Origin: Nitrososphaeraceae archaeon
GTDB taxonomy: Archaea > Thermoproteota > Nitrososphaeria > Nitrososphaerales > Nitrososphaeraceae
NCBI GenBank assembly: GCA_044870765.1
Contig: JBIOZG010000009.1
Span: 1-10,654 of the forward strand
Length of the DNA: 10,654 nt
Reading direction: 5' to 3'
Made by a program: the position numbers and the translations under genes. Below the pieces are notes generated by a model, which saw nothing but the letters and a program-made list of their open reading frames with translations, had not been told where the DNA came from and ran no database searches. Shown piece by piece: positions 1,178 through 10,654 of the stretch. Position 1 is the first letter of the stretch. Each line of letters starts with the position of its first letter.

Positions 1178-1326
1178 GCTGTAAAGTACAAATCATGTTC
1201 TTCTTTTTCTACACCCACATTAATTTTGCAGTCAGTAGGACTATAGAAATTTAACTTGATTTAGTTGTATGCTGGTTACTTCGTTTTTTATTAATAAGCA
1301 CATAATAATATGTGATGGTTCTTCAA

Positions 1327-1340
1327 GCAAGGTTAAAATT
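1327..1340 (+). promoter_or_regulatory. Possible BRE/TATA element for atpC
   Basis: GCAAGG-TTAAAATT, with TTAAAA at 1333-1338, about 45 nt before ATG 1383. Position and AT content only. Confidence 0.3.
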
Positions 1341-1382
1341 GATGCAGAATTATTACGTAATGACAGAGGACGTGCCATATCA

Positions 1383-2435
1383 ATGAGCAAGGTAAGCATG
1401 CCAGGAAAAATTTTCGGTACTGTCATGTCTCATGGATTAAAAGGGAGATTGTTAACAAAGAATGAACTCCAGATGTTGACCGAATCAAGGGACATGGATG
1501 AACTAGTAACAAGGATGAAAAATACCGTTTACCTCGATGCGTTGGCCAAGCTCACGAAGCCGTATACTGCAGATAAGATTGAAAACGCGTTGAAAGAATA
1601 TCTCGTGAACACACATTCAAAAATGGTCAACGTTTCAGGTGGAGCCAGAATTATCAGTGCATATTTTGTAAAGCATTTAACGTGGAATTTAAAGATGATT
1701 TTAAAGGGAAAAGCTCTGGGAAAATCCTATGATGAACTGTTGCCGAAGATAAACCTGAGGGCTGAAGAACTAGTAGGTAGACGAGATCTTGTGGTTAAGG
1801 CACTTGTTTCAAAGACATTAGAGGAAGCGGTATCTACTCTTGCTGGTAGCGAATTTGCAGAGGATGTTACCAAAGCGGCTGCTATTTACAAGGATAAAGG
1901 AGATGTCAGGATTTTTGATGTTTACCTAGATCATGTATTCTACCATGATTTGGGTAGGGCGATGAATACTGAATCACAATCATTGGATGCAAAAAACATT
2001 GTCTCTGTTGATATTGATTCTTATAACGTACTTGCAATACTGCGAGGAAAATTTTGGAACCTGCCTGCCGATGACATAAATAATCTCATGGTCGCTAGTA
2101 CTTCGAAGGTAACAAAAGAAACTATACAAAAGATGATAAATGCGGAAAAAATATCAGAGGCAATTGGGGAATTATCCAACACAGTATACAAGGATATTGT
2201 CCCTCAGAATCCGACAAGTGACATAGATTCCATATTACAAATTGAAAAGGGATTTGAAGACATTGCATTAAAGCGAGCATTGTCAGCTTTTAGAACTATG
2301 TTCAGTGTGGGGATTGTACTTGCAGCACTAAAACTTATCATGGTAGAAGTTAGAAATTTGTCAGCAATAGCATCTGGAATTGAACAGAAGATTCCAGGAG
2401 AAACAATATTATCAAAGTTAATTAATGTAAATTAA
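1383..2435 (+). CDS. atpC: A/V-type ATP synthase subunit C (C/d family)
   Basis: About 350 aa with family-typical segments (LKGRLLTKNELQML; WNLKMILKGK; DIDSYNVLAILRGK; EVRNLSAIASGIEQKI) and ATP synthase context. The first 38 codons from ATG 1269 do not resemble the family, so the start is placed at ATG 1383 (alternative ATG 1398). Confidence 0.93.
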   Translation: MSKVSMPGKIFGTVMSHGLKGRLLTKNELQMLTESRDMDELVTRMKNTVYLDALAKLTKPYTADKIENALKEYLVNTHSKMVNVSGGARIISAYFVKHLTWNLKMILKGKALGKSYDELLPKINLRAEELVGRRDLVVKALVSKTLEEAVSTLAGSEFAEDVTKAAAIYKDKGDVRIFDVYLDHVFYHDLGRAMNTESQSLDAKNIVSVDIDSYNVLAILRGKFWNLPADDINNLMVASTSKVTKETIQKMINAEKISEAIGELSNTVYKDIVPQNPTSDIDSILQIEKGFEDIALKRALSAFRTMFSVGIVLAALKLIMVEVRNLSAIASGIEQKIPGETILSKLINVN

Positions 2436-2528: not shown

Positions 2529-4625
2529 CTAACTAGATCGTTTTTCTGGCCAGACAAGATTTGAATAAAGCATCTTTGGAATTAATTTCTTGAATTCAAC
2601 TCCTTCGCCTATATACCATTTTGGAAACCATTCGTAAAGATGTAACCTAATTGTCTGAATATATACAATTAATCCTTCTATAAGCATGATTCCTATGTTG
2701 CCTCCAATCAAAACTGCTAAACCGCCTCCATGCTCGTATGACTGATTGACCGTTACCAAGAGAGCAGCGTGTACCAACAACATAATTCCAAGTCTGGTAT
2801 AACTGATCACATTAGAAAGTACTTCAATTATCCTTACTAGTATGACCTCAATAACAATTCCCATCAATCCTCCTCCTCCTTCATCATGACCATGTTTTGC
2901 AGCGAGTTCTTGTTCTTTTTTTCCTCCGTAAATCATGATTCCCGCAGTTGCAATGATTATAGGAGGGGTGGCTTTGGCAACCAAGTCTACTGTTACCCAG
3001 TCCCCGAATAAATATGTCAACCACGGTACCGGTTCATTATGAGTGACACCAGTTATTCCAAACATACCTATTATATCGTATCCTGAACCTATCGCGGCAA
3101 GTATCAATGCTACTATGGCAAGAAATTGTATTATAGTAGGAATATCATGTGTGAAAACGACAAGTTTGTCTCTTTTGAGGATATCAGCTCTAAGTCTTAG
3201 AAACAATGCCATCAACAAGTGTATGATACCAATAGCAACGGACACTTTCAGTATCTTTATTACCTGTTCAAATGTTAATTCTGAAACATTTAGAGCCCCC
3301 ACTAGCCCATCCAATGGCGCAAATATGGGTGCTAATATAGCGATCTCATCTATGTGAAATCCAAAAAATTCTCCCGTTCCTACCCCTGCAATGCTGGCTG
3401 CTGCACCGCTTGCAGCCAATAATGTTGCCCAAGTCCTTAGACTTCCATTTGCTCTGTACCGTAAGAACATTCCCAATCCAAAAAGCAGAAGGCCATGTCC
3501 CAAATCTGCAAACATAATGCCATAAAAAACGGGCCATACGAAAGCAATTATTGGAGTCGGATCTACTTCACCATAATTAGGAAGTCCCTGAGTCTCAGTT
3601 ATTACTTCAAATGTCTTTGCATACTTGTTATTGAGAAGTAGTGTTGGAAGTTGATTGCTAGAATCCTTATCTAAACTAGCCGGCTCGGCAATAGAGACAT
3701 AACTTTTTGTGAGATTTTTGAACTTTTTCTCCATGCCGTCTGGGATATATCCCTGAATAAGGGCAAAATTCTTTGTTCCTCCTGGCTTTCTAGTTACCTC
3801 CAAAATATCTTTTGTGACCTTAGAGGACTCGTACAATGAAAGTAATTTGGGCAAGAGATTAACTTTTAATTTCTCTATTTTTTTAGTGATCTCTGCAGAT
3901 GCCTTTTCAAGTTCCTTGCATTTCTTTTGGCATTTCTCATGGGCAGAACCAGGATTCTGTGGCAATTCGGGAGGAATCTGAATAGGATGCACATTAAAAC
4001 TTCTAAGAACTTTCATGATTTTTTCAGAATCTTCTTGTGAGCCTATCACAGTAATAGATGATTTCTCATCATTGAGTTTGAGTGGATGTACAATAAGATC
4101 AGTCAGACTATTTTGAATTTCAGTGATATCTTTGGTATTAACGATAAAAATTTCTGCAAAAAATGTCTTCAGACTACGCAATCCGGATAAGTCCATTCGG
4201 AGCTTTGAAGCACTTCCGATTGCGTTCAGGGCATTACGATATTCTTCAAGTTCCTTTTCTATTTGTTGCTGGCTCTTAAGTAACGATATTGGTTCTTCTA
4301 GTACAACTTTACTTTTCATTTCTAATTCAACAATGAAATTTTGAATATCGTCTATCTTGTAATCAGTCTTTTCCTGGGGAGCGCCTTTAAAGAGAGCGGC
4401 CATGACACCAGTTTCAAGGGGTATGCCTAAAGATCTTATAACATCGTCAATCTCTTGAAATAACTTTTGAGCATTTAACAAAAGATCATCAAAGTAAGGA
4501 TTACCATGTTCAGATGGATTCTGCAATGGATGAAACCATTCTAATTCTGCCAATTTACTTACGGCGTCGTGCGTTTCAACCCTTGGCAGAATCAAAGTTG
4601 TCTTTAAGAGTTTGGCCTGTCCCAT
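2529..4625 (-). CDS. atpI: A/V-type ATP synthase subunit I (subunit a)
   Basis: 698 aa; soluble coiled-coil N-terminal half and polytopic C-terminal half. Motifs LPNYGEVDPT, FYGIMFADLGHG, SNVISYTRL (essential Arg) and QTIRLHLYEWF. Confidence 0.97.
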   Translation of the reverse strand: MGQAKLLKTTLILPRVETHDAVSKLAELEWFHPLQNPSEHGNPYFDDLLLNAQKLFQEIDDVIRSLGIPLETGVMAALFKGAPQEKTDYKIDDIQNFIVELEMKSKVVLEEPISLLKSQQQIEKELEEYRNALNAIGSASKLRMDLSGLRSLKTFFAEIFIVNTKDITEIQNSLTDLIVHPLKLNDEKSSITVIGSQEDSEKIMKVLRSFNVHPIQIPPELPQNPGSAHEKCQKKCKELEKASAEITKKIEKLKVNLLPKLLSLYESSKVTKDILEVTRKPGGTKNFALIQGYIPDGMEKKFKNLTKSYVSIAEPASLDKDSSNQLPTLLLNNKYAKTFEVITETQGLPNYGEVDPTPIIAFVWPVFYGIMFADLGHGLLLFGLGMFLRYRANGSLRTWATLLAASGAAASIAGVGTGEFFGFHIDEIAILAPIFAPLDGLVGALNVSELTFEQVIKILKVSVAIGIIHLLMALFLRLRADILKRDKLVVFTHDIPTIIQFLAIVALILAAIGSGYDIIGMFGITGVTHNEPVPWLTYLFGDWVTVDLVAKATPPIIIATAGIMIYGGKKEQELAAKHGHDEGGGGLMGIVIEVILVRIIEVLSNVISYTRLGIMLLVHAALLVTVNQSYEHGGGLAVLIGGNIGIMLIEGLIVYIQTIRLHLYEWFPKWYIGEGVEFKKLIPKMLYSNLVWPEKRSS

Positions 4626-4858: not shown

Positions 4859-5191
4859 TCATTGTCCCAAGATGATGAACATCATTACAATACCATAGAT
4901 AGCAATGGATTCTACCATACCGACAAATATGAAGACTCTAGATTGCATTTTTGGATTATCGCTAATCGCGGCTAAACCAGCAGCGCCTACAAATCCCAAA
5001 CCTATTCCTGAACCAGCGGCCGCAAGACCAAATGCCATACCTGCACCAATAAACTTGGCTGATCCTGCATCTGATGTTCCCCCTGTTTCGGCTTGTGCAA
5101 ATGCCCAGTTGTAATACAAGAATAGTATGCTAAAAGTCATAGCAATTGTCAGAAGAATAACACTAGCTTTTTCTCTGTTAACACCCATCAT
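4859..5191 (-). CDS. atpK: A-type ATP synthase subunit K (subunit c, proteolipid); single hairpin with a signal-peptide-like N-terminal extension
   Basis: GxGxG helix (GSGIGLG), loop SDNP, ion-binding Glu in VESIAIYG. Residues 1-32 are basic/hydrophobic and end in AFA|Q. Start ATG 5191 or 5188. Confidence 0.96.
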   Translation of the reverse strand: MMGVNREKASVILLTIAMTFSILFLYYNWAFAQAETGGTSDAGSAKFIGAGMAFGLAAAGSGIGLGFVGAAGLAAISDNPKMQSRVFIFVGMVESIAIYGIVMMFIILGQ

Positions 5192-5214
5192 ACATTGGTT
5201 CGAAATTGAAGGCC

Positions 5215-5228
5215 ATATTTAATTATAA
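5215..5228 (-). promoter_or_regulatory. Putative TATA box of a dedicated atpK promoter
   Basis: Minus strand TTATAATTAAATAT; TTAAATA (5222-5216) is 25-31 nt upstream of ATG 5191, the spacing expected for a leaderless archaeal transcript. Confidence 0.5.
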
Positions 5229-5397
5229 CTAAGAAATTTGCATGATGTCCGAATTCACTGCGTTGTAAATACGGAAAAGAGTTCTAAGTAACCTGTACTA
5301 TCCAATATCATTAAGAGATTCTAATCGATAAAATGTTTCTAACTACTGTAATTGGTCAAAATGTGTTTTGGAACTTGACGAGATTAACTTGTATTAC

Positions 5398-5544
5398 TTA
5401 AACATCCGACAAAGCCTTTTTCTTGTAGGAAGAAATATCTTGTTTTACATCCTGTATCATTGAATCGTGCTCTGATTGTAAATTTTGTTTTGATTTCTTA
5501 AAATACTCTGCAATAATATCAGCCTCCATTTTACTTGCAACCAT
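5398..5544 (-). CDS. Small 48-aa helical protein in the ATP synthase operon, absent from the ORF track; candidate G/H-like peripheral-stalk subunit
   Basis: Manual translation from ATG 5544 to TAA 5400-5398: MVASKMEADIIAEYFKKSKQNLQSEHDSMIQDVKQDISSYKKKALSDV. Starts 18 nt after the atpD stop on the same strand; no Pro or Gly; charged and amphipathic. Alternative start ATG 5529. Confidence 0.72.
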   Translation of the reverse strand: MVASKMEADIIAEYFKKSKQNLQSEHDSMIQDVKQDISSYKKKALSDV

Positions 5545-5562
5545 CAATATGCATTGTTATGT

Positions 5563-6207
5563 CTACTCTATATTCTTTTTCTTATCTAAAACAACTTTTA
5601 CTTTTTTCAGTCTTACAAATTCTTCTCGCTCACGTTCTTCTAATGTTCCCTTAATGAAGGCAATCGCATGCTGATACTGTGGAATTATAACAAATTCAAG
5701 CGCATTGATTAGTTTTTGGGTTTTTTCAAGTTCCTTTGCTAGACTGAAAATAGCATTTTCATATTCGGCTGCTTTACAAATCTGTGGAAGCATATTCTTT
5801 ATCTGTTTAGATGCCTTGTCAACAAATACGTTTGTTTCTGAAAATCCATAAGACAGGTCCTGACCTCCTTGTTTTGTTTTTATCTGGAGTGTGGGGATTT
5901 TCACATCAACGATCCTTCTCACATTAACATTTACTTCCATTATAGCCGGAGTCGAATCTGAAATTGATTCAAGTGTCGATGTTCCCAGTGACATATACGA
6001 ATCATAGACTGCAGAGTAAATATCAGAAAGTGGAGACCAGATATCACCTCTCGTTTTATTAGCCTCTTCTATCATTTCGTCGATTTTTTTTAGTAACACT
6101 TCTCGTTTGTCATCAAGTATTTTGTGAACCATACTGCTAACTTGCAACGATCTCCTTATCTTTATCAGTTCTATTTTCGTTGCAGTAACATTTTTACCAA
6201 ATGACAT
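5563..6207 (-). CDS. atpD: A/V-type ATP synthase subunit D (central stalk)
   Basis: 214 aa; N-terminal ATKIELIKIRRSL...HKILDDKREVL and C-terminal LEKTQKLINALEFVIIP...LEEREREEFVRLKKVK signatures. Confidence 0.97.
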   Translation of the reverse strand: MSFGKNVTATKIELIKIRRSLQVSSMVHKILDDKREVLLKKIDEMIEEANKTRGDIWSPLSDIYSAVYDSYMSLGTSTLESISDSTPAIMEVNVNVRRIVDVKIPTLQIKTKQGGQDLSYGFSETNVFVDKASKQIKNMLPQICKAAEYENAIFSLAKELEKTQKLINALEFVIIPQYQHAIAFIKGTLEEREREEFVRLKKVKVVLDKKKNIE

Positions 6208-6223
6208 TTCGATGTACTAAAGT

Positions 6224-7612
6224 TTACTTGTTTCCCTTATAATACTGCTGAATATGTTTGTCTTTAATTTTAGTTAGTTCCCCTTCTGGTAAAGCAGCCA
6301 ATATATCCCATGCCCTGCTCAGCGTTTCATCCAAATTTCTATTTTCATCAGGACTTTGTTTTAAAAAATGCGTCTCAAAATTATCCCCAGCGTCGAGATA
6401 TTTCAAATCAACTCCGGTTAAACCCGCCTTTCCTACAATCTCTGCCAGTGCTCTGACCTCTTGCGCTCTAGAATAAGCATCGTATAATTGATTGCCAACT
6501 TCCATATGATCTGATCTGGTTTTTCCTTCTCCAACACCATCCTTCATTAATCTAGAAAGTGACATCATAACATTGACCGGTGGATATATTCCCTTTCTGA
6601 AAAGGTCTCTTCCCAGGACCACTTGTCCTTCCGTAATGTAACCAGTCAAATCAGGTATAGGATGTGTAATGTCATCTGCGGGCATTGATAATATGGGCAT
6701 TTGAGTAACACTTCCGCTCTTTCCCTTAATTCTCCCTGCTCGCTCATAATTATTTGCCAAGTCAGTATAGAGATATCCAGGATATCCTTTCCTTCCAGGA
6801 ACTTCTTCCCTAGCGGCGCTAATTTCCCTGAGGGCTTCTGCATAATTGGTCATATCAGTTAGTATTGCCAATACATGCATACCTAGATCAAATGCAAGAT
6901 ACTCAGCAACAGTCAAGGCCACCCTTGGAGTTATGATTCTTTCAATTGCAGGGTCATCTGCAAGATTAATAAATAAAACACTTCTTCTCAAAGCACCTGA
7001 TTCCTCCAAGCTCCTTTTGAAGTATTGCGCTTCAGAGTACTGAACACCAATAGCCGCAAATACTACAGCAAAGTCTTCGTTGGTCCCTACAACTGTAGCT
7101 TGTCGCGCAATTTGTGCCGCCAATATATTATGTGACATTCCAGAGCCCGAAAAAATAGGCAACTTTTGACCCCTGACAAGTGTCAGCATTCCGTCAATAA
7201 CAGATACTCCGGTTTGAATGAATGAAGTTGGATATTCTCGGCTCTGCGGATTCATCGGCTCTCCGTTCACGTCAAGGAATTTATCAGCAACAGGATCAGG
7301 TAAGCCATCATTTGGTCTGCCAAGCCCATCGAATACTCGTCCAAGAAGTTCTTGGGATACCGGCATGGTCATAGTTTTTCCGAGAAATTTTACTTTTGTT
7401 CCAGTTATAGCCAGTCCCGTTGTTCCTTCAAAAACCTGAACTACTGCTTTGCCGTATCCTATTTCCAGAACTTTTCCTAATCTTCTTTCACCCTCATTTG
7501 TTTCAATTTCCACAAGTTCGTCAAATGATGCTTTGGTTACACCATCTACTATCATAAGTGGTCCTTTTATTTCAGCAATTTTCGTATATTCTATTCCAGT
7601 GGTTTTAGACAG
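6224..7612 (-). CDS. atpB: A/V-type ATP synthase subunit B (non-catalytic), probably initiated at CTG 7612
   Basis: Motifs [48 protein letters not shown] and [18 protein letters not shown]. The frame is open 19 codons upstream of ATG 7555, encodes the conserved [12 protein letters not shown] segment and begins at a CTG with SD GAGGAGGT 8 nt upstream (462 aa in total). Confidence 0.97.
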
Positions 7613-9389
7613 AGACCTTTACCTCCTCAATGTTACCTTTGAACGAATCGGATAACTGCTTGTCAATTTCTTCTAACTTTGAAACCTCCTCGTCTGTAAC
7701 TTCAAACTTTGCCTTTAATAGAGTGGTTATTATTGGTAGTGCTCTGATATCTGCTAAGGATTTTCCCTCCTTTAGAGCCTTTTGTGCTTCTTTGTAAAAC
7801 TTTACCATCAATCTAACCAATTTCAGTTGTTTTGCTGGACCACAATAAGTATCAACTTTATCAAAAGAGTTTTGTTGCAAGATTCCAATCTTTAGCATTC
7901 TGGCTACTTCAAGAACAAGTTTCTCCTCATCGGGAAGCGCCTCAGGTCCCAACAATCTAACAATTTCTTTTAGTGTATCTTCACGCTGCAATATATGATA
8001 GGATTCAGCTCTCAGATCATACCAGTCAGGACTTACGTTTTCTTTCCACCATTTAGATATATCTTCAAGATATCCAGAATAAGACTGCATCCAATTAATT
8101 GACGGATAGTGCCTCGAGTATGCTAATCTGGTATCTAGCGCCCAAAAAGTCTTGATGAATCTAATTGTGTGAGTTGTTACCGGTTCGGTAAAGTCTGCTC
8201 CAGATGGAGATACTGCACCAACCAATGTCACGGATCCGGAACGATCTGGTGAACCAAGTGCTCTGATTCGTCCTGCTCTTTCGTAAAATTCTGCGAGTCT
8301 TGAAGCCAAGTACGAAGGATAACCCTCTTCTGCTGGCATTTCTTCTAAACGACCTGACATTTCTCTGAGTGCCTCTGCCCATCTACTTGTAGAATCAGCC
8401 ACAAGAACTACGTCATAGCCCATGTCCCGATAATACTCTGCCATAGTAACACCAGTGTAGATTGATGCCTCTCTAGCGGCAACAGGCATGTTACTAGTAT
8501 TAGCGACAAGTACTGTTCTTTCCATCAATGGTCTCTGAGATCTGGGGTCAATTAAATGTGGAAATTCTACAAGAACTTCTGTCATTTCATTGCCTCGTTC
8601 TCCACAACCAATGTAGACTACAACCTTGGAATCTGCCCATTTAGCTATTTGATGTAGTGTGACAGTCTTGCCTGTGCCAAATCCGCCTGGAATAGCACCG
8701 GTTCCACCTTTTGCTATAGGGAAATAAGTGTCAATGATTCTCTGACCGGTAACCAGCGGTACTGTAGGATCATATCTTTCTGCATATGGACGTGGTTTCC
8801 TAACTGGCCATTTATGATACATCTTTAATTGAATTTTATCTCCGTTCTTGCTACTGGCCTGTCCAATGACATGCTCTAAATCATACTCTCCTTCCTTGAC
8901 AATATCAGAAATAGTCAACTCAGGATAATTTGGAGGAACCAATATTTTGTGAGTTAACAAAGGAGTTTCCTCTACTGTCCCAAGGACTGAACCCCCAAAA
9001 ATAGCATCATCTTTTTTTACTGAGGGATTAAATCTGTATTTATTTTTCATATCGACAGGGCTTGTCGTAATCCCTCTACCAATGAATGCTCCTGATTTTT
9101 CAGCAATCTCGTCCAACGGCCTTTGTATACCATCATAAATTCTTCCAATAATTCCTGGGCCCAGAAGTACGGAAAGTGGCTGACCCGTACCTATTACTTC
9201 TTCTCCCGGTTTAAGACCTGATGTTGATTCATAGACTTGAATAAACGCTACGTCTCCAGTTAATCTGATAACTTCTCCAATTAGTTTTGATTCACCAACT
9301 TCCACCGTCTCATACATTTTTGCAGATGACATTCCATCAGCCTTAACTGCTGGACCACTAACCCATACTATTTTTCCCTTTGCTACCAT
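7605..9389 (-). CDS. atpA: A/V-type ATP synthase subunit A (catalytic)
   Basis: 594 aa; Walker [31 protein letters not shown], Walker [31 protein letters not shown]. The ATG directly follows the atpE TAG, with SD-like GAGGGGAG upstream. Confidence 0.99.
7621..7628 (-). promoter_or_regulatory. Shine-Dalgarno sequence GAGGAGGT for atpB, within the 3' end of atpA
   Basis: Minus strand GAGGAGGT-AAAGGTCT-CTG; 8-nt spacer. Confidence 0.75.
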
Positions 9390-10001
9390 CTACTTGTTCT
9401 CCCCTCTAAGCAGTTGGACTATGTCTTTCCTTATTAAAGGTTTGAGGCTTTCAATATTAGAATCCAGGGTGTTATCCAATGTCATTGTTGCGTCCGCTGA
9501 AGTCGCTTTTATTCCACCGATTATATCTAAAAAATTGTCGGATACACTTACTTTCATGTTTTTGGTGGTTGATTCTTGTGAGGATATCTTCCTTACTAGC
9601 TTTTGGTCGGCTTTATTGCATTGTATGACAATTTCAGCACCTAACTTTGAAACACTGTCTTGTATCATCCTGGTCAGCAATTTTTCATAATTTTTTTCAT
9701 TATTACTCTGGGCAAGTTTTTCCTTTGCTTTAGTAAAAATTTCATCAATTGCCGATTCGATTATGATGAGCTCTTTGTTCCTGGCGTTAAGGGTGCTAGA
9801 TCCTATTATCTGTCGTTTTAAACTTTCAGCCTGTTTTTTTGAAGATTCAATAATAGCATCATATTCAACCTGTAGAGTGGTCTTGGAAGATTCTAAATTT
9901 TTTAATGAATTCTGAAGTGCAGAATCAATCTCAGAAATTAAAGCTGATTCTTTTTGTGAAAGAACTTTATCAATGGTTCTTTCTAAAGAATTTAAACTCA
10001 T
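9390..10001 (-). CDS. atpE: A/V-type ATP synthase subunit E (peripheral stalk)
   Basis: 203 aa; long N-terminal helix and C-terminal domain with IIGGIKATSADATMTLDNTLD; immediately upstream of atpA. Confidence 0.92.
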   Translation of the reverse strand: MSLNSLERTIDKVLSQKESALISEIDSALQNSLKNLESSKTTLQVEYDAIIESSKKQAESLKRQIIGSSTLNARNKELIIIESAIDEIFTKAKEKLAQSNNEKNYEKLLTRMIQDSVSKLGAEIVIQCNKADQKLVRKISSQESTTKNMKVSVSDNFLDIIGGIKATSADATMTLDNTLDSNIESLKPLIRKDIVQLLRGENK

Positions 10002-10157: not shown

Positions 10158-10654
10158 CTATGAACCCCTGCATACTTCGCAGGTAAATGTTCCTTCAGAA
10201 TACATTAGCCCATCTGACCATTCTCCACATTCATCACAATATCCAGACACAGTAGATGCCGGTCTACCAATCTCCCCTCTAATCATGGCAGCCTTTTCTG
10301 ACACCACATCGACTAGTTCTGGAGTCACAGCGATAACATCGGAACTTGAAATTATTCCTGCTAATTTGTCTTTGTAAACAACGCCCAATCTTTTGATATT
10401 ATTTTTTCTTAATATCCGCGCTGCCTCAGTTATATCTTCTCCTGCTTCGACCGTGTGAATAGGTTGCATTACTTTTACTGCCGCAACAGAAGATGGTTCC
10501 AAATTGCTCCCCACAACCTTTGATACCACGTCCCAGTCAGTGACAATTCCAACGGGTTTTTCATTTTCAGTTATAATTACACTGCCAATAGTATGCTCTT
10601 TCATTTTCATTGCGATGTCAGCAATGTTATCGCTTGGAATAGCTGTGATTACGG
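10158..10654 (-). CDS. CBS-domain pair (Bateman module) protein with C-terminal Cys4 zinc ribbon; 5'-partial
   Basis: The frame stays open from ATG 10610 to the window edge (..VITAIPSDNIADIA-MKMKEH). CBS motifs IGSVII..KPVGIVTDWDV and IKRLGVV..KLAGIISSSDV; tail CDECGEW-x10-CEVC. Confidence 0.9.
   Translation of the reverse strand, partial: VITAIPSDNIADIAMKMKEHTIGSVIITENEKPVGIVTDWDVVSKVVGSNLEPSSVAAVKVMQPIHTVEAGEDITEAARILRKNNIKRLGVVYKDKLAGIISSSDVIAVTPELVDVVSEKAAMIRGEIGRPASTVSGYCDECGEWSDGLMYSEGTFTCEVCRGS

What the first reader, a model, noticed from the sequence alone, without database searches (positions are those of the whole stretch)
5398..5544. Unannotated 48-aa helical ORF inside the operon: candidate for the missing G/H peripheral-stalk subunit
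Seen: a clean ATG-to-TAA ORF, not in the ORF track, starts 18 nt after atpD on the same strand. It encodes a Pro/Gly-free, charged, amphipathic helix (MVASKMEADIIAEYFKKSKQNLQSEHDSMIQDVKQDISSYKKKALSDV). Established: A/V-type enzymes need an E-G(H) coiled-coil stator in which G/H is an all-helical protein of roughly 100 aa; no such gene is recognisable in this window. Inference: this is a half-length G/H partner for AtpE, or else a small regulatory or inhibitory peptide of the A1 head (IF1/zeta-like concept).
Basis: partly seen in the sequence, partly recalled or inferred. Interest (0 to 1): 0.8.

Follow-up and report, generated by a model that had tools for sequence, protein, structure and literature searches.

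The report
Conserved small ATP synthase helix gene
The 48-codon reading frame after atpD is a real, conserved gene for a single-helix protein that travels with the archaeal-type ATP synthase of ammonia-oxidising archaea and resembles the little-studied "epsilon" subunit of Sulfolobus, but it is not the missing G/H stalk subunit, which this genome encodes elsewhere.

Summary
The ORF is there as described, on the minus strand (ATG 5544 to TAA 5398-5400), 18 nt after atpD. It is a real gene. It lies between atpD and atpK in 30 of 30 genus loci, aligns without gaps, and has a median dN/dS of 0.13. A small helical ORF follows atpD in all 19 further A-type loci of the order that extend past atpD.

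It is not the missing G/H subunit. A full-length 109-aa H-like gene lies on another contig (NF006256, E 6.9e-9). That gene heads the H-F-E-A-B-D operon in 8 loci of other families, and its evolutionary rate covaries with AtpE (rho 0.48). It was not found in the genomes searched that carry only a V-type-like atpD.

The small protein shows no profile similarity to H (1.2%). It does match the Sulfolobaceae "epsilon" family PF08112 (78%, E 1.7e-5; 0 of 200 shuffles reach the score), which occupies the same atpD-to-atpK slot.

My best reading is that it is a tenth small subunit or accessory protein of Thermoproteota A-type ATP synthases: one amphipathic helix, often translationally coupled to atpD. 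Its binding partner is unresolved. I lean weakly towards the E-H stalk. The one complex prediction I ran gave no verdict.

The parts
5398..5544 (-). Small ORF 'X' (48 aa from ATG 5544). Met6 at 5529 gives the 43-aa core shared by the whole family; TTG 5547 is a further possible start. One amphipathic helix.
   Evidence: sequence; conservation, synteny, dN/dS 0.13; family alignments; helix 2-47, pLDDT 93; hydrophobic period 3.74, 0 of 1000 shuffles reach it
5563..6207 (-). atpD (central-stalk subunit D), the gene directly upstream. In 15 of 32 related loci its stop overlaps the start of X.
   Evidence: PF01813 E 1.9e-52; spacing
5192..5232 (-). Conserved A+T-rich block with a TATA-like core directly upstream of atpK. 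Probably atpK's own promoter, which would make X the last cistron of the E-A-B-D-X unit.
   Evidence: the only part of the spacer conserved, in 27 of 28 loci; no RNA contig covers 5186-5293 in any of 4 runs; a weak hint only. The promoter reading is inference.
4859..5191 (-). atpK (c/proteolipid subunit, 110 aa, with an N-terminal hydrophobic extension), downstream neighbour
   Evidence: PF00137 E 3.2e-17; NF004888
2529..4625 (-). atpI (a subunit, 698 aa)
   Evidence: PF01496 E 5.1e-27
6224..7555 (-). atpB
   Evidence: translation; matched as atpB in related operons. Named from the translation and gene order; no family search was run on it.
7605..9389 (-). atpA
   Evidence: Named from the translation and gene order; no family search was run on it.
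9390..10001 (-). atpE (203 aa, full length)
   Evidence: PF01991 E 4.7e-19; NF003049 E 2.2e-19
1269..2435 (+). atpC (d subunit, 388 aa), transcribed divergently
   Evidence: PF01992 E 1.4e-58

Best explanation
The ORF encodes a small accessory subunit of the archaeal (A-type) ATP synthase. It is the ammonia-oxidiser counterpart of the Sulfolobus ATPase 'epsilon' chain (Pfam PF08112), and would be a tenth gene product beside A, B, C, D, E, F, H, I and K.

Shown: it is a conserved protein-coding gene under purifying selection. It sits directly after atpD in every A-type operon examined in the order, and in several other Thermoproteota families. Its start often overlaps the atpD stop. It was not found in the genomes searched that carry only a V-type-like atpD. 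It folds as one amphipathic helix of about 43 residues whose hydrophobic stripe repeats every 3.7 residues. It coexists with a separate full-length subunit H.

Inferred: it is made in step with D as the last cistron of the soluble A1 transcription unit, and it works by lying lengthwise against another long helix of the enzyme. I lean towards the E-H peripheral stalk as a short third helix (about 40%), over the rotor subunit D (about 25%). It does not replace H.
For: Real gene: (details in the observation check).

Breadth:
- Profile A2 finds it in 80 of 201 genomes of the order at E <= 1e-3. Three of those hits lie in 336-aa frames and are probably false.
- All 22 further loci fetched show atpD next to it.
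- All 19 A-type loci of other families that extend past atpD carry a 33-55 aa hydrophilic ORF there.
- G094, missed by the profile, has one too.
- 91 representative clusters match at E <= 1e-3, and 89 of them are proteins of 28-68 aa.

Link to the A-type enzyme: in family f1, 26 of 40 genomes have an A-type atpD (E <= 1.5e-98), and exactly those 26 have X and the H-like gene. The 14 with only a distant atpD (E 2e-19 to 2e-15) have neither. In f13 the two V-type-only genomes likewise lack both.

Relation to Sulfolobus epsilon:
- PF08112 hits 9 of 9 Sulfolobaceae genomes (8 over Pfam's cut-off), and all nine hits lie between atpD and atpK.
- hhalign of the X alignment (A3) against the Sulfolobaceae alignment (A4) gives 78% probability, E 1.7e-5 and score 26.2, in register up to the C-termini.
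- Controls score lower: 200 column shuffles have mean 8.8 and maximum 17.2; reversed profiles score 12.6 and 11.6; the H-like profile scores 14.1.
- The ORFs in the same slot in two other families match A3 at 88% and 80%.

Coupling to atpD: 15 of 32 loci overlap the atpD stop and 8 of 32 lie 0-10 nt away. RNA contigs bridge atpD and X.

Not H.

Leads towards the stalk, all weak:
- Hydrophobic period is 3.74, against 3.70 for H and 3.6-3.74 for the AtpE N-terminal helix.
- NCBIfam gives weak matches to F-type b subunits, E 0.02-0.035.
- The Sulfolobaceae profile against the AtpE N-terminal helix gives 36%.
- Rate covariation is X-H rho 0.33 (p 0.019), against X-D 0.20 and X-E 0.21.
- X evolves as fast as E and H (tree lengths 9.8, 6.5 and 7.6), not like D, A and B (2.8, 2.2, 1.7).
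Against: - No protein-level evidence was seen, whether mass spectrometry, ribosome profiling or a structure. Supplements of proteome papers were closed.
- No Pfam, NCBIfam or PDB family matches X itself at a meaningful level. PF08112 does not detect it.
- The X-epsilon link rests on one profile-profile score of two short, charged helical profiles. Periodic helical families reach scores of 19-24 against each other even when reversed.
- Loss together with the operon is trivial for a gene that lies inside it.
- The stalk leads are each weak. The D N-terminal helix also has period 3.66. The X-H covariation vanishes with another background (rho 0.18, p 0.2) and is uncorrected for multiple tests.
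- Gene adjacency is a poor guide in this operon. F binds D, as known from solved V/A-ATPase structures (recalled), yet atpF lies between H and E.
- That Sulfolobus epsilon is part of the purified enzyme is recalled, not checked here.
Confidence: 0.62

Rival explanations
1. One reading: the peptide is a half-length G/H subunit that pairs with the N-terminal helix of AtpE and stands in for a missing stator subunit.
For: - The window holds no G/H gene.
- A 2019 paper stated that no H homologue was known in neutrophilic ammonia oxidisers (PMC6863869).
- X gives weak F-type b-subunit matches (E 0.02-0.035).
- Its hydrophobic period resembles that of H.
Against: - A full-length H-like gene exists in the same genome.
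- That gene sits at the head of the operon in 8 of 8 loci of families f7 and f10.
- Its evolutionary rate covaries with AtpE (rho 0.48), and JGI names it subunit H.
- X and H coexist in all 27 genomes analysed, in two other Thermoproteota families, and in one Sulfolobaceae genome.
- The X and H profiles are unrelated (1.2%).
- X is 41-55 aa throughout the order and its Sulfolobaceae counterparts are 52-59 aa, so it is not a recent truncation.
Confidence: 0.05
2. The peptide is a regulatory inhibitor of the A1 head. On this reading it is a free helix that enters an A-B catalytic interface or clamps D to block wasteful ATP hydrolysis when the proton motive force falls. It would work like mitochondrial IF1 or the alphaproteobacterial zeta subunit without being related to them.
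For: - It is a single charged helix of a similar size class to IF1 (IF1 size recalled).
- It is encoded with the A1 genes.
- It is confined to lineages whose enzyme works as a synthase. That is established knowledge of Sulfolobus and ammonia oxidisers, not tested here.
- It evolves fast.
Against: - No sequence match to any inhibitor family appeared in the Pfam scans.
- Start-stop overlap with atpD in 15 of 32 loci suggests fixed co-production rather than regulated supply.
- Nothing here speaks to activity.
Confidence: 0.13
3. The peptide is an assembly factor. It would hold newly made D, or an A1 intermediate, until it joins A3B3 or the membrane sector, and would be absent from the mature enzyme.
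For: Translational coupling to atpD; its position as last cistron of the A1 unit; small size and fast evolution.
Against: No direct evidence. From recall, the Sulfolobus homologue was named as a subunit of the enzyme. Conservation across the phylum fits a structural role equally well.
Confidence: 0.12
4. The frame is not translated, or its product has nothing to do with the ATPase. What is conserved would then be an RNA or spacing element between two transcription units.
For: No protein-level data were seen. No known family matches it.
Against: - dN/dS is 0.13, the alignment is gapless, and changes sit at third positions.
- The amino-acid pattern is kept while the DNA diverges to saturation.
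- The frame is kept open in high-GC relatives such as G094.
- The same slot is filled across families whose atpD is only 50-60% identical.
Confidence: 0.04

Closest known systems
Sulfolobus ATPase 'epsilon' chain, Pfam PF08112 (ATP-synt_E_2)
   Same: - Same slot between atpD and the proteolipid gene, often overlapping the atpD stop (9 of 9 Sulfolobaceae loci).
- Similar size (52-59 aa against 41-55 aa).
- Same hydrophobic period (3.72 against 3.74).
- Shared basic C-terminal motif, and a profile-profile match of 78%, E 1.7e-5.
- Coexists with a separate H-like gene.
   Different: The Pfam model does not detect the ammonia-oxidiser proteins (0 of 37 f13 genomes). Public records call them 'hypothetical protein'. 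The function of the Sulfolobus protein is itself unknown to me. Its naming as an enzyme subunit and the 1990 operon paper are recalled, not read here.
A/V-ATPase subunit H (=G): PF16999, TIGR02926, NF006256
   Same: All-helical and charged, with a hydrophobic period near 3.7 and a fast evolutionary rate.
   Different: H is about 93-145 aa, one helix of about 100 residues. It is encoded separately here on contig C50. Its profile is unrelated to X. The family models hit the C50 gene and not X.
Small helical proteins of F-type ATP synthases: mitochondrial epsilon, IF1, zeta (analogy only, recalled)
   Same: Small proteins attached to a rotary ATPase, either at the foot of the central stalk or as hydrolysis inhibitors.
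   Different: No sequence relation was found. They belong to another enzyme class. No functional data exist for X.

Membership tests
A/V-ATPase subunit G/H | Matches the family models (PF16999, PF03179, TIGR02926, NF006256) | tested here: not met
   Pfam gives 0 families at E <= 1. NCBIfam gives only F-type b-subunit models at E 0.021 and 0.035. Whole-genome scans with PF16999, TIGR02926 and NF006256 hit the C50 gene and not this ORF. PF03179 was covered only by the Pfam scans and was not scanned across the genome.
A/V-ATPase subunit G/H | About 100-120 aa, with a helix long enough to run the length of the AtpE N-terminal helix | tested here: not met
   41-55 aa in the 32 orthologues of alignment A3. 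The model is one helix over residues 2-47. The C50 protein is one helix over 2-102.
A/V-ATPase subunit G/H | Is the genome's G/H gene, with no other candidate | tested here: not met
   The C50 gene matches NF006256 at E 6.9e-9. It lies in the operon as H-F-E-A-B-D in 8 of 8 loci of f7 and f10. Its rate covaries with AtpE at rho 0.48.
A/V-ATPase subunit G/H | Forms a coiled coil with AtpE | not tested
PF08112 ATP-synt_E_2 (Sulfolobus epsilon) | Scores over Pfam's gathering threshold (25 bits) | tested here: not met
   No hit for the window ORF or for any of the 32 members of A3. The genome scan's best hits lie elsewhere, at E 0.35 or weaker.
PF08112 ATP-synt_E_2 (Sulfolobus epsilon) | Profile-level similarity to family members | tested here: met
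   hhalign A3 against A4: 78%, E 1.7e-5, 33 columns. 0 of 200 column shuffles reach the score, and reversed controls give 11.6-12.6. Moderate strength only.
PF08112 ATP-synt_E_2 (Sulfolobus epsilon) | Encoded between atpD and the proteolipid gene, as a small single-helix protein | tested here: met
   X; 9 of 9 Sulfolobaceae loci.
PF08112 ATP-synt_E_2 (Sulfolobus epsilon) | Physically part of the ATPase complex | not testable with these tools
   Needs purification, cross-linking or cryo-EM.
IF1 / zeta-type ATPase inhibitors | Sequence membership in a known inhibitor family | tested here: not met
   No such family appeared among the Pfam matches of X or of the 32 A3 members.
IF1 / zeta-type ATPase inhibitors | Inhibits ATP hydrolysis by the soluble head | not testable with these tools
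   Needs a biochemical assay.

The most novel reading that the evidence does not exclude
X/epsilon is a genuine stoichiometric tenth subunit of the A-type ATP synthase throughout the Thermoproteota, including the abundant marine and soil ammonia oxidisers, and has no counterpart that I know of in solved rotary ATPase structures (no PDB chain matched it by sequence). It would be either a short third helix on the E-H stator that stiffens or anchors it, or a built-in brake on ATP hydrolysis. The textbook nine-subunit composition of A-ATPases would then be incomplete for a whole archaeal phylum.
Probability: 0.35. Interest if true: 0.65.

Novelty: new member of a known kind. Interest (0 to 1): 0.42.

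Why it matters
Ammonia-oxidising archaea are among the most abundant microbes in oceans and soils (PMC6863869, abstract). Their A-type ATP synthase has been treated as incompletely catalogued, with 'eight of nine' subunits found (PMC6863869).

This work adds two things. First, the H subunit is present but unlinked in Nitrososphaeraceae and Nitrosopumilaceae. JGI already annotates it, while the NCBI records listed for it call it 'hypothetical protein'. Second, every A-type operon examined carries a further small gene that public records leave as 'hypothetical protein', and it appears to be the counterpart of the little-studied Sulfolobus epsilon chain.

If the peptide is a true subunit, structural and biochemical models of Thermoproteota ATP synthases lack a component. 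Comparisons of A-type and V-type enzymes in acid and pressure adaptation should then take it into account. The claim can be tested directly in cultivated strains.

Tried and rejected
Tried without result:

- Complex prediction on AtpD + AtpF + X, with paired alignments A6, A7 and A3 and X as the partner. It returned 'no answer' (score 0.01, mark 0.32). This is neither for nor against binding. No E/H+X model could be run because the cap is one job.
- Foldseek of the H-like model against the PDB: 0 matches. This is expected for a single long helix.
- Profile search of X (A3) against PDB sequences: only chance-level hits, namely a designed helical protein, sigma factors and haemagglutinin.
- Pfam scan of all 32 A3 members: no recurrent family.
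- ESM Atlas look-alikes: best score 0.79, below the lead level.
- Search for natural fusions. Of 91 representative clusters, two are long. P0279 is the first ~120 residues of an atpD joined to X through an out-of-frame stretch. P0321 is a eukaryote-like membrane protein joined to X. I read both as assembly or frameshift artefacts. The 222-aa 'open frame' in G069 is an out-of-frame overlap with atpD, not a fusion.
- Profile search for X outside the order, in 300 phylum genomes: only 6 weak hits (E 0.008-0.04) inside long frames, which I take as chance. Relatives there were found by position and by profile-sequence comparison instead. The slot ORFs of families f26 and f29 (L088, L089) show no detectable similarity and count only as positional analogues.
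- Rate covariation could not settle the partner.
- Hydrophobic period could not separate the stalk from the D N-terminal helix.
- RNA contigs: the hole at 5186-5293 in all four runs is only a weak hint of a transcript end. Contigs cannot show ends, and RNA libraries can hold DNA.
- Literature searches found no paper in the held library on this small ORF, on a Sulfolobus epsilon function, or on a Thermoproteota A-ATPase structure. I read passages of PMC6863869, PMC3189178, PMC8305020, PMC10811736 and PMC13707971. Supplements were closed, so proteome tables that might list the peptide were not seen.

Unpublished genomes: G020 and G034 appear in the tallies, as loci L006 and L029, and L029 is in alignments A1 and A2. 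G144 appears only in the tallies. No claim depends on them alone.

Full report
**The observation**

The window carries an A-type ATP synthase cluster on the minus strand. The genes, in order, are:
- a CBS-domain gene (10158-10610)
- atpE (9390-10001)
- atpA (7605-9389)
- atpB (6224-7555)
- atpD (5563-6207)
- the small ORF (5398-5544)
- atpK (4859-5191)
- atpI (2529-4625)

atpC lies on the plus strand (1269-2435).

It starts 18 nt after the atpD stop and has no Pro or Gly. An ORF of this length is nothing special by itself: there are 55 ORFs of at least 40 aa in the window.

**It is a real gene**

- The peptide matches 31 of 36 genomes of the same genus.
- In 30 of 30 loci it lies between atpD and atpK. 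One locus is the window itself, and atpK was seen in 29 because one locus ends early.
- The 30 sequences align without internal gaps. Median pairwise dN/dS is 0.13 over the 306 of 435 pairs with usable dS, and none exceeds 1.
- The ORF aligns as a block in 23 of 28 loci. The 206-nt spacer behind it keeps only its last ~40 nt.
- Public gene callers predict it, always as 'hypothetical protein', including in Nitrosopumilus maritimus and Ca. Nitrososphaera gargensis.
- In four soil metatranscriptome runs, contigs bridge atpD and the ORF. All five variant sites inside the ORF are third-position changes that I read as synonymous.
- AlphaFold2 with the family alignment gives one helix over residues 2-47 at pLDDT 93.

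**Breadth of the family**

A genus profile, then a broader one, found the family in other genera and families of the order. Profile A2 matched 80 of 201 genomes at E <= 1e-3, including 37 of 40 genomes of the family that holds Nitrosopumilus. All 22 further loci fetched keep the ORF next to atpD.

Because the profile loses sensitivity, I also looked by position. In 20 A-type loci from families where the profile found nothing, all 19 that extend past atpD have a 33-55 aa hydrophilic ORF directly after atpD. G094, which the profile missed, has one as well.

The shared core is 41-45 residues and starts at the Met that corresponds to Met6 of the window ORF. The start overlaps the atpD stop in 15 of 32 loci and lies within 10 nt in 8 more.

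A search of 1.84 billion representative proteins gave 91 clusters. 89 of them are proteins of 28-68 aa. The two long ones look like artefacts.

**It is not the missing G/H subunit**

Wang et al. 2019 (PMC6863869, passages read) state that only eight of nine subunits were known for the A-type enzyme of neutrophilic ammonia oxidisers, and that no clear H/G homologue had been reported.

The genome nevertheless holds a full-length candidate on contig C50:
- It is a 109-aa protein that matches NF006256 'V-type ATP synthase subunit H' at E 6.9e-9 over its whole length. It also gives weaker matches to TIGR02926, PF16999 and many F-type b-subunit models.
- It is the only such match in the genome.
- It folds as one 100-residue helix.
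- JGI already names this family subunit H or G/H, while the NCBI records listed for it say 'hypothetical'.

Three independent lines tie this gene to the enzyme:
1. In 8 of 8 loci from families f7 and f10 it sits directly upstream of atpF-atpE-atpA-atpB-atpD (coordinates).
2. Within family f1, exactly the 26 of 40 genomes with an A-type atpD have it. The 14 with only a distant, V-type-like atpD do not, although the gene is unlinked to the operon there. The same holds for the two V-type-only genomes of f13.
3. On a fixed A+B tree of 27 genomes, its branch-rate residuals covary with those of AtpE (rho 0.48, p < 0.001; rho 0.40 with another background), but not with AtpD.

atpF is also encoded elsewhere, on C12. 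All nine canonical subunits are therefore present at normal lengths, and the small protein is extra. Its profile is unrelated to the H-like profile (hhalign 1.2%).

**What it resembles**

Other Thermoproteota also have a small helical ORF between atpD and atpK. Pfam has a family for the Sulfolobus one, PF08112 'ATP synthase epsilon subunit'. It hits 9 of 9 Sulfolobaceae genomes in a sample of 251 phylum genomes, and all nine hits lie between atpD and atpK, mostly overlapping the atpD stop.

PF08112 does not detect the window ORF. Profile against profile, however, the two families match at 78% probability, E 1.7e-5, in register to the C-terminus. The alignment pairs an E-aromatic/His motif and the basic C-terminal motif.

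The score of 26.2 stands well above the controls:
- 200 column shuffles: mean 8.8, maximum 17.2
- reversed profiles: 11.6 and 12.6
- the H-like profile: 14.1

The slot ORFs of two more families match the X profile at 88% and 80%. Two others show no similarity and are only positional analogues.

A Sulfolobaceae genome also has a 110-aa H-like gene overlapping the start of atpC. Epsilon and H therefore coexist there too, as they do in families f28 and f34.

I conclude that the ORF is a divergent member of the Sulfolobus-epsilon kind. From memory, not from a call, the Sulfolobus operon was described in 1990 as delta-alpha-beta-gamma-epsilon-c.

**How it may work**

Shown:
- It is one amphipathic helix.
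- Its hydrophobic stripe has a period of 3.74 residues, with almost no power at 3.5 (0 of 1000 shuffles reach it).
- It is often translationally coupled to atpD.

Indicated, but weaker: it appears to be the last cistron of the E-A-B-D-X unit. A conserved TATA-like block sits just before atpK, and no RNA contig crosses 5186-5293.

Inferred: it packs lengthwise on another long helix of the enzyme.

Several weak leads favour the E-H stator:
- The same period is found in H (3.70) and in the AtpE N-terminal helix (3.6-3.74).
- X gives weak matches to b subunits.
- The Sulfolobaceae profile matches the AtpE N-terminal helix at 36%. A reversed H profile scores nearly as high, so this counts for little.
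- Rate covariation is highest with H (rho 0.33, p 0.019, uncorrected, and lost with another background).
- X evolves at the pace of E and H, not of D, A and B.

For D, the only support is gene adjacency and coupling. That argument is weakened because atpF, whose product binds D in solved V/A-ATPase structures (recalled), is not next to atpD.

My odds are:
- stalk-associated: 40%
- rotor-associated: 25%
- inhibitor at the head: about 13%
- assembly factor: about 12%

**Verdict**

This is a new, unannotated member of a known but functionally obscure kind. Interest is moderate. It would rise if the peptide proves to be a stoichiometric tenth subunit.

Noticed in passing
G000 contig C50:7384-7710 (minus) = L001:1411-1740: Full-length subunit H-like gene (109 aa), unlinked to the atp operon, next to genes for a NAC-domain protein and a PUA-domain protein. 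The NCBI records listed for this family call it 'hypothetical protein'; JGI calls it subunit H. In families f7 and f10 it heads an H-F-E-A-B-D operon.
   Followed up: yes
G000 contig C12:83251-83496 = L003:1495-1791: atpF (98 aa, PF01990 E 2.9e-15) is also encoded away from the operon, so the ATPase genes of this genome lie in at least three places.
   Followed up: partly
window 5192-5232 (minus strand): The only conserved part of the 206-nt spacer between the small ORF and atpK is an A+T-rich block with a TATA-like core directly before the atpK start. It is kept in 27 of 28 genus loci and is probably a separate promoter for atpK-atpI.
   Followed up: partly
L132:2217-3754 (genome G164): The atpA match is split into two pieces about 1.5 kb apart on the same strand. 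This looks like an intein or other insertion in the catalytic subunit.
   Followed up: no
window 10158-10610 (minus strand): The gene directly upstream of atpE encodes a CBS-domain protein (PF00571) with a Cys-rich C-terminal tail that looks like a zinc ribbon. It could be a nucleotide-sensing regulator placed beside the ATPase genes.
   Followed up: no
window 4859-5191 (minus strand): The c subunit (110 aa) has a hydrophobic N-terminal extension of about 45 residues before the single hairpin matched by PF00137 (residues 48-107). Sulfolobaceae and other relatives show the same feature.
   Followed up: no
genera g23 and g25 of the same family: All 8 g23 genomes, the single g24 genome and 5 of 7 g25 genomes have only a distant, V-type-like atpD and lack both the small ORF and the H-like gene. 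G182 and G216 (g25) have two atpD matches, so they may carry both enzyme types.
   Followed up: partly
P0321 and P0279: Two database proteins join the small peptide to unrelated sequence: a eukaryote-like membrane protein in one, and a frameshifted half of atpD in the other. Both are probably assembly or gene-calling artefacts.
   Followed up: partly
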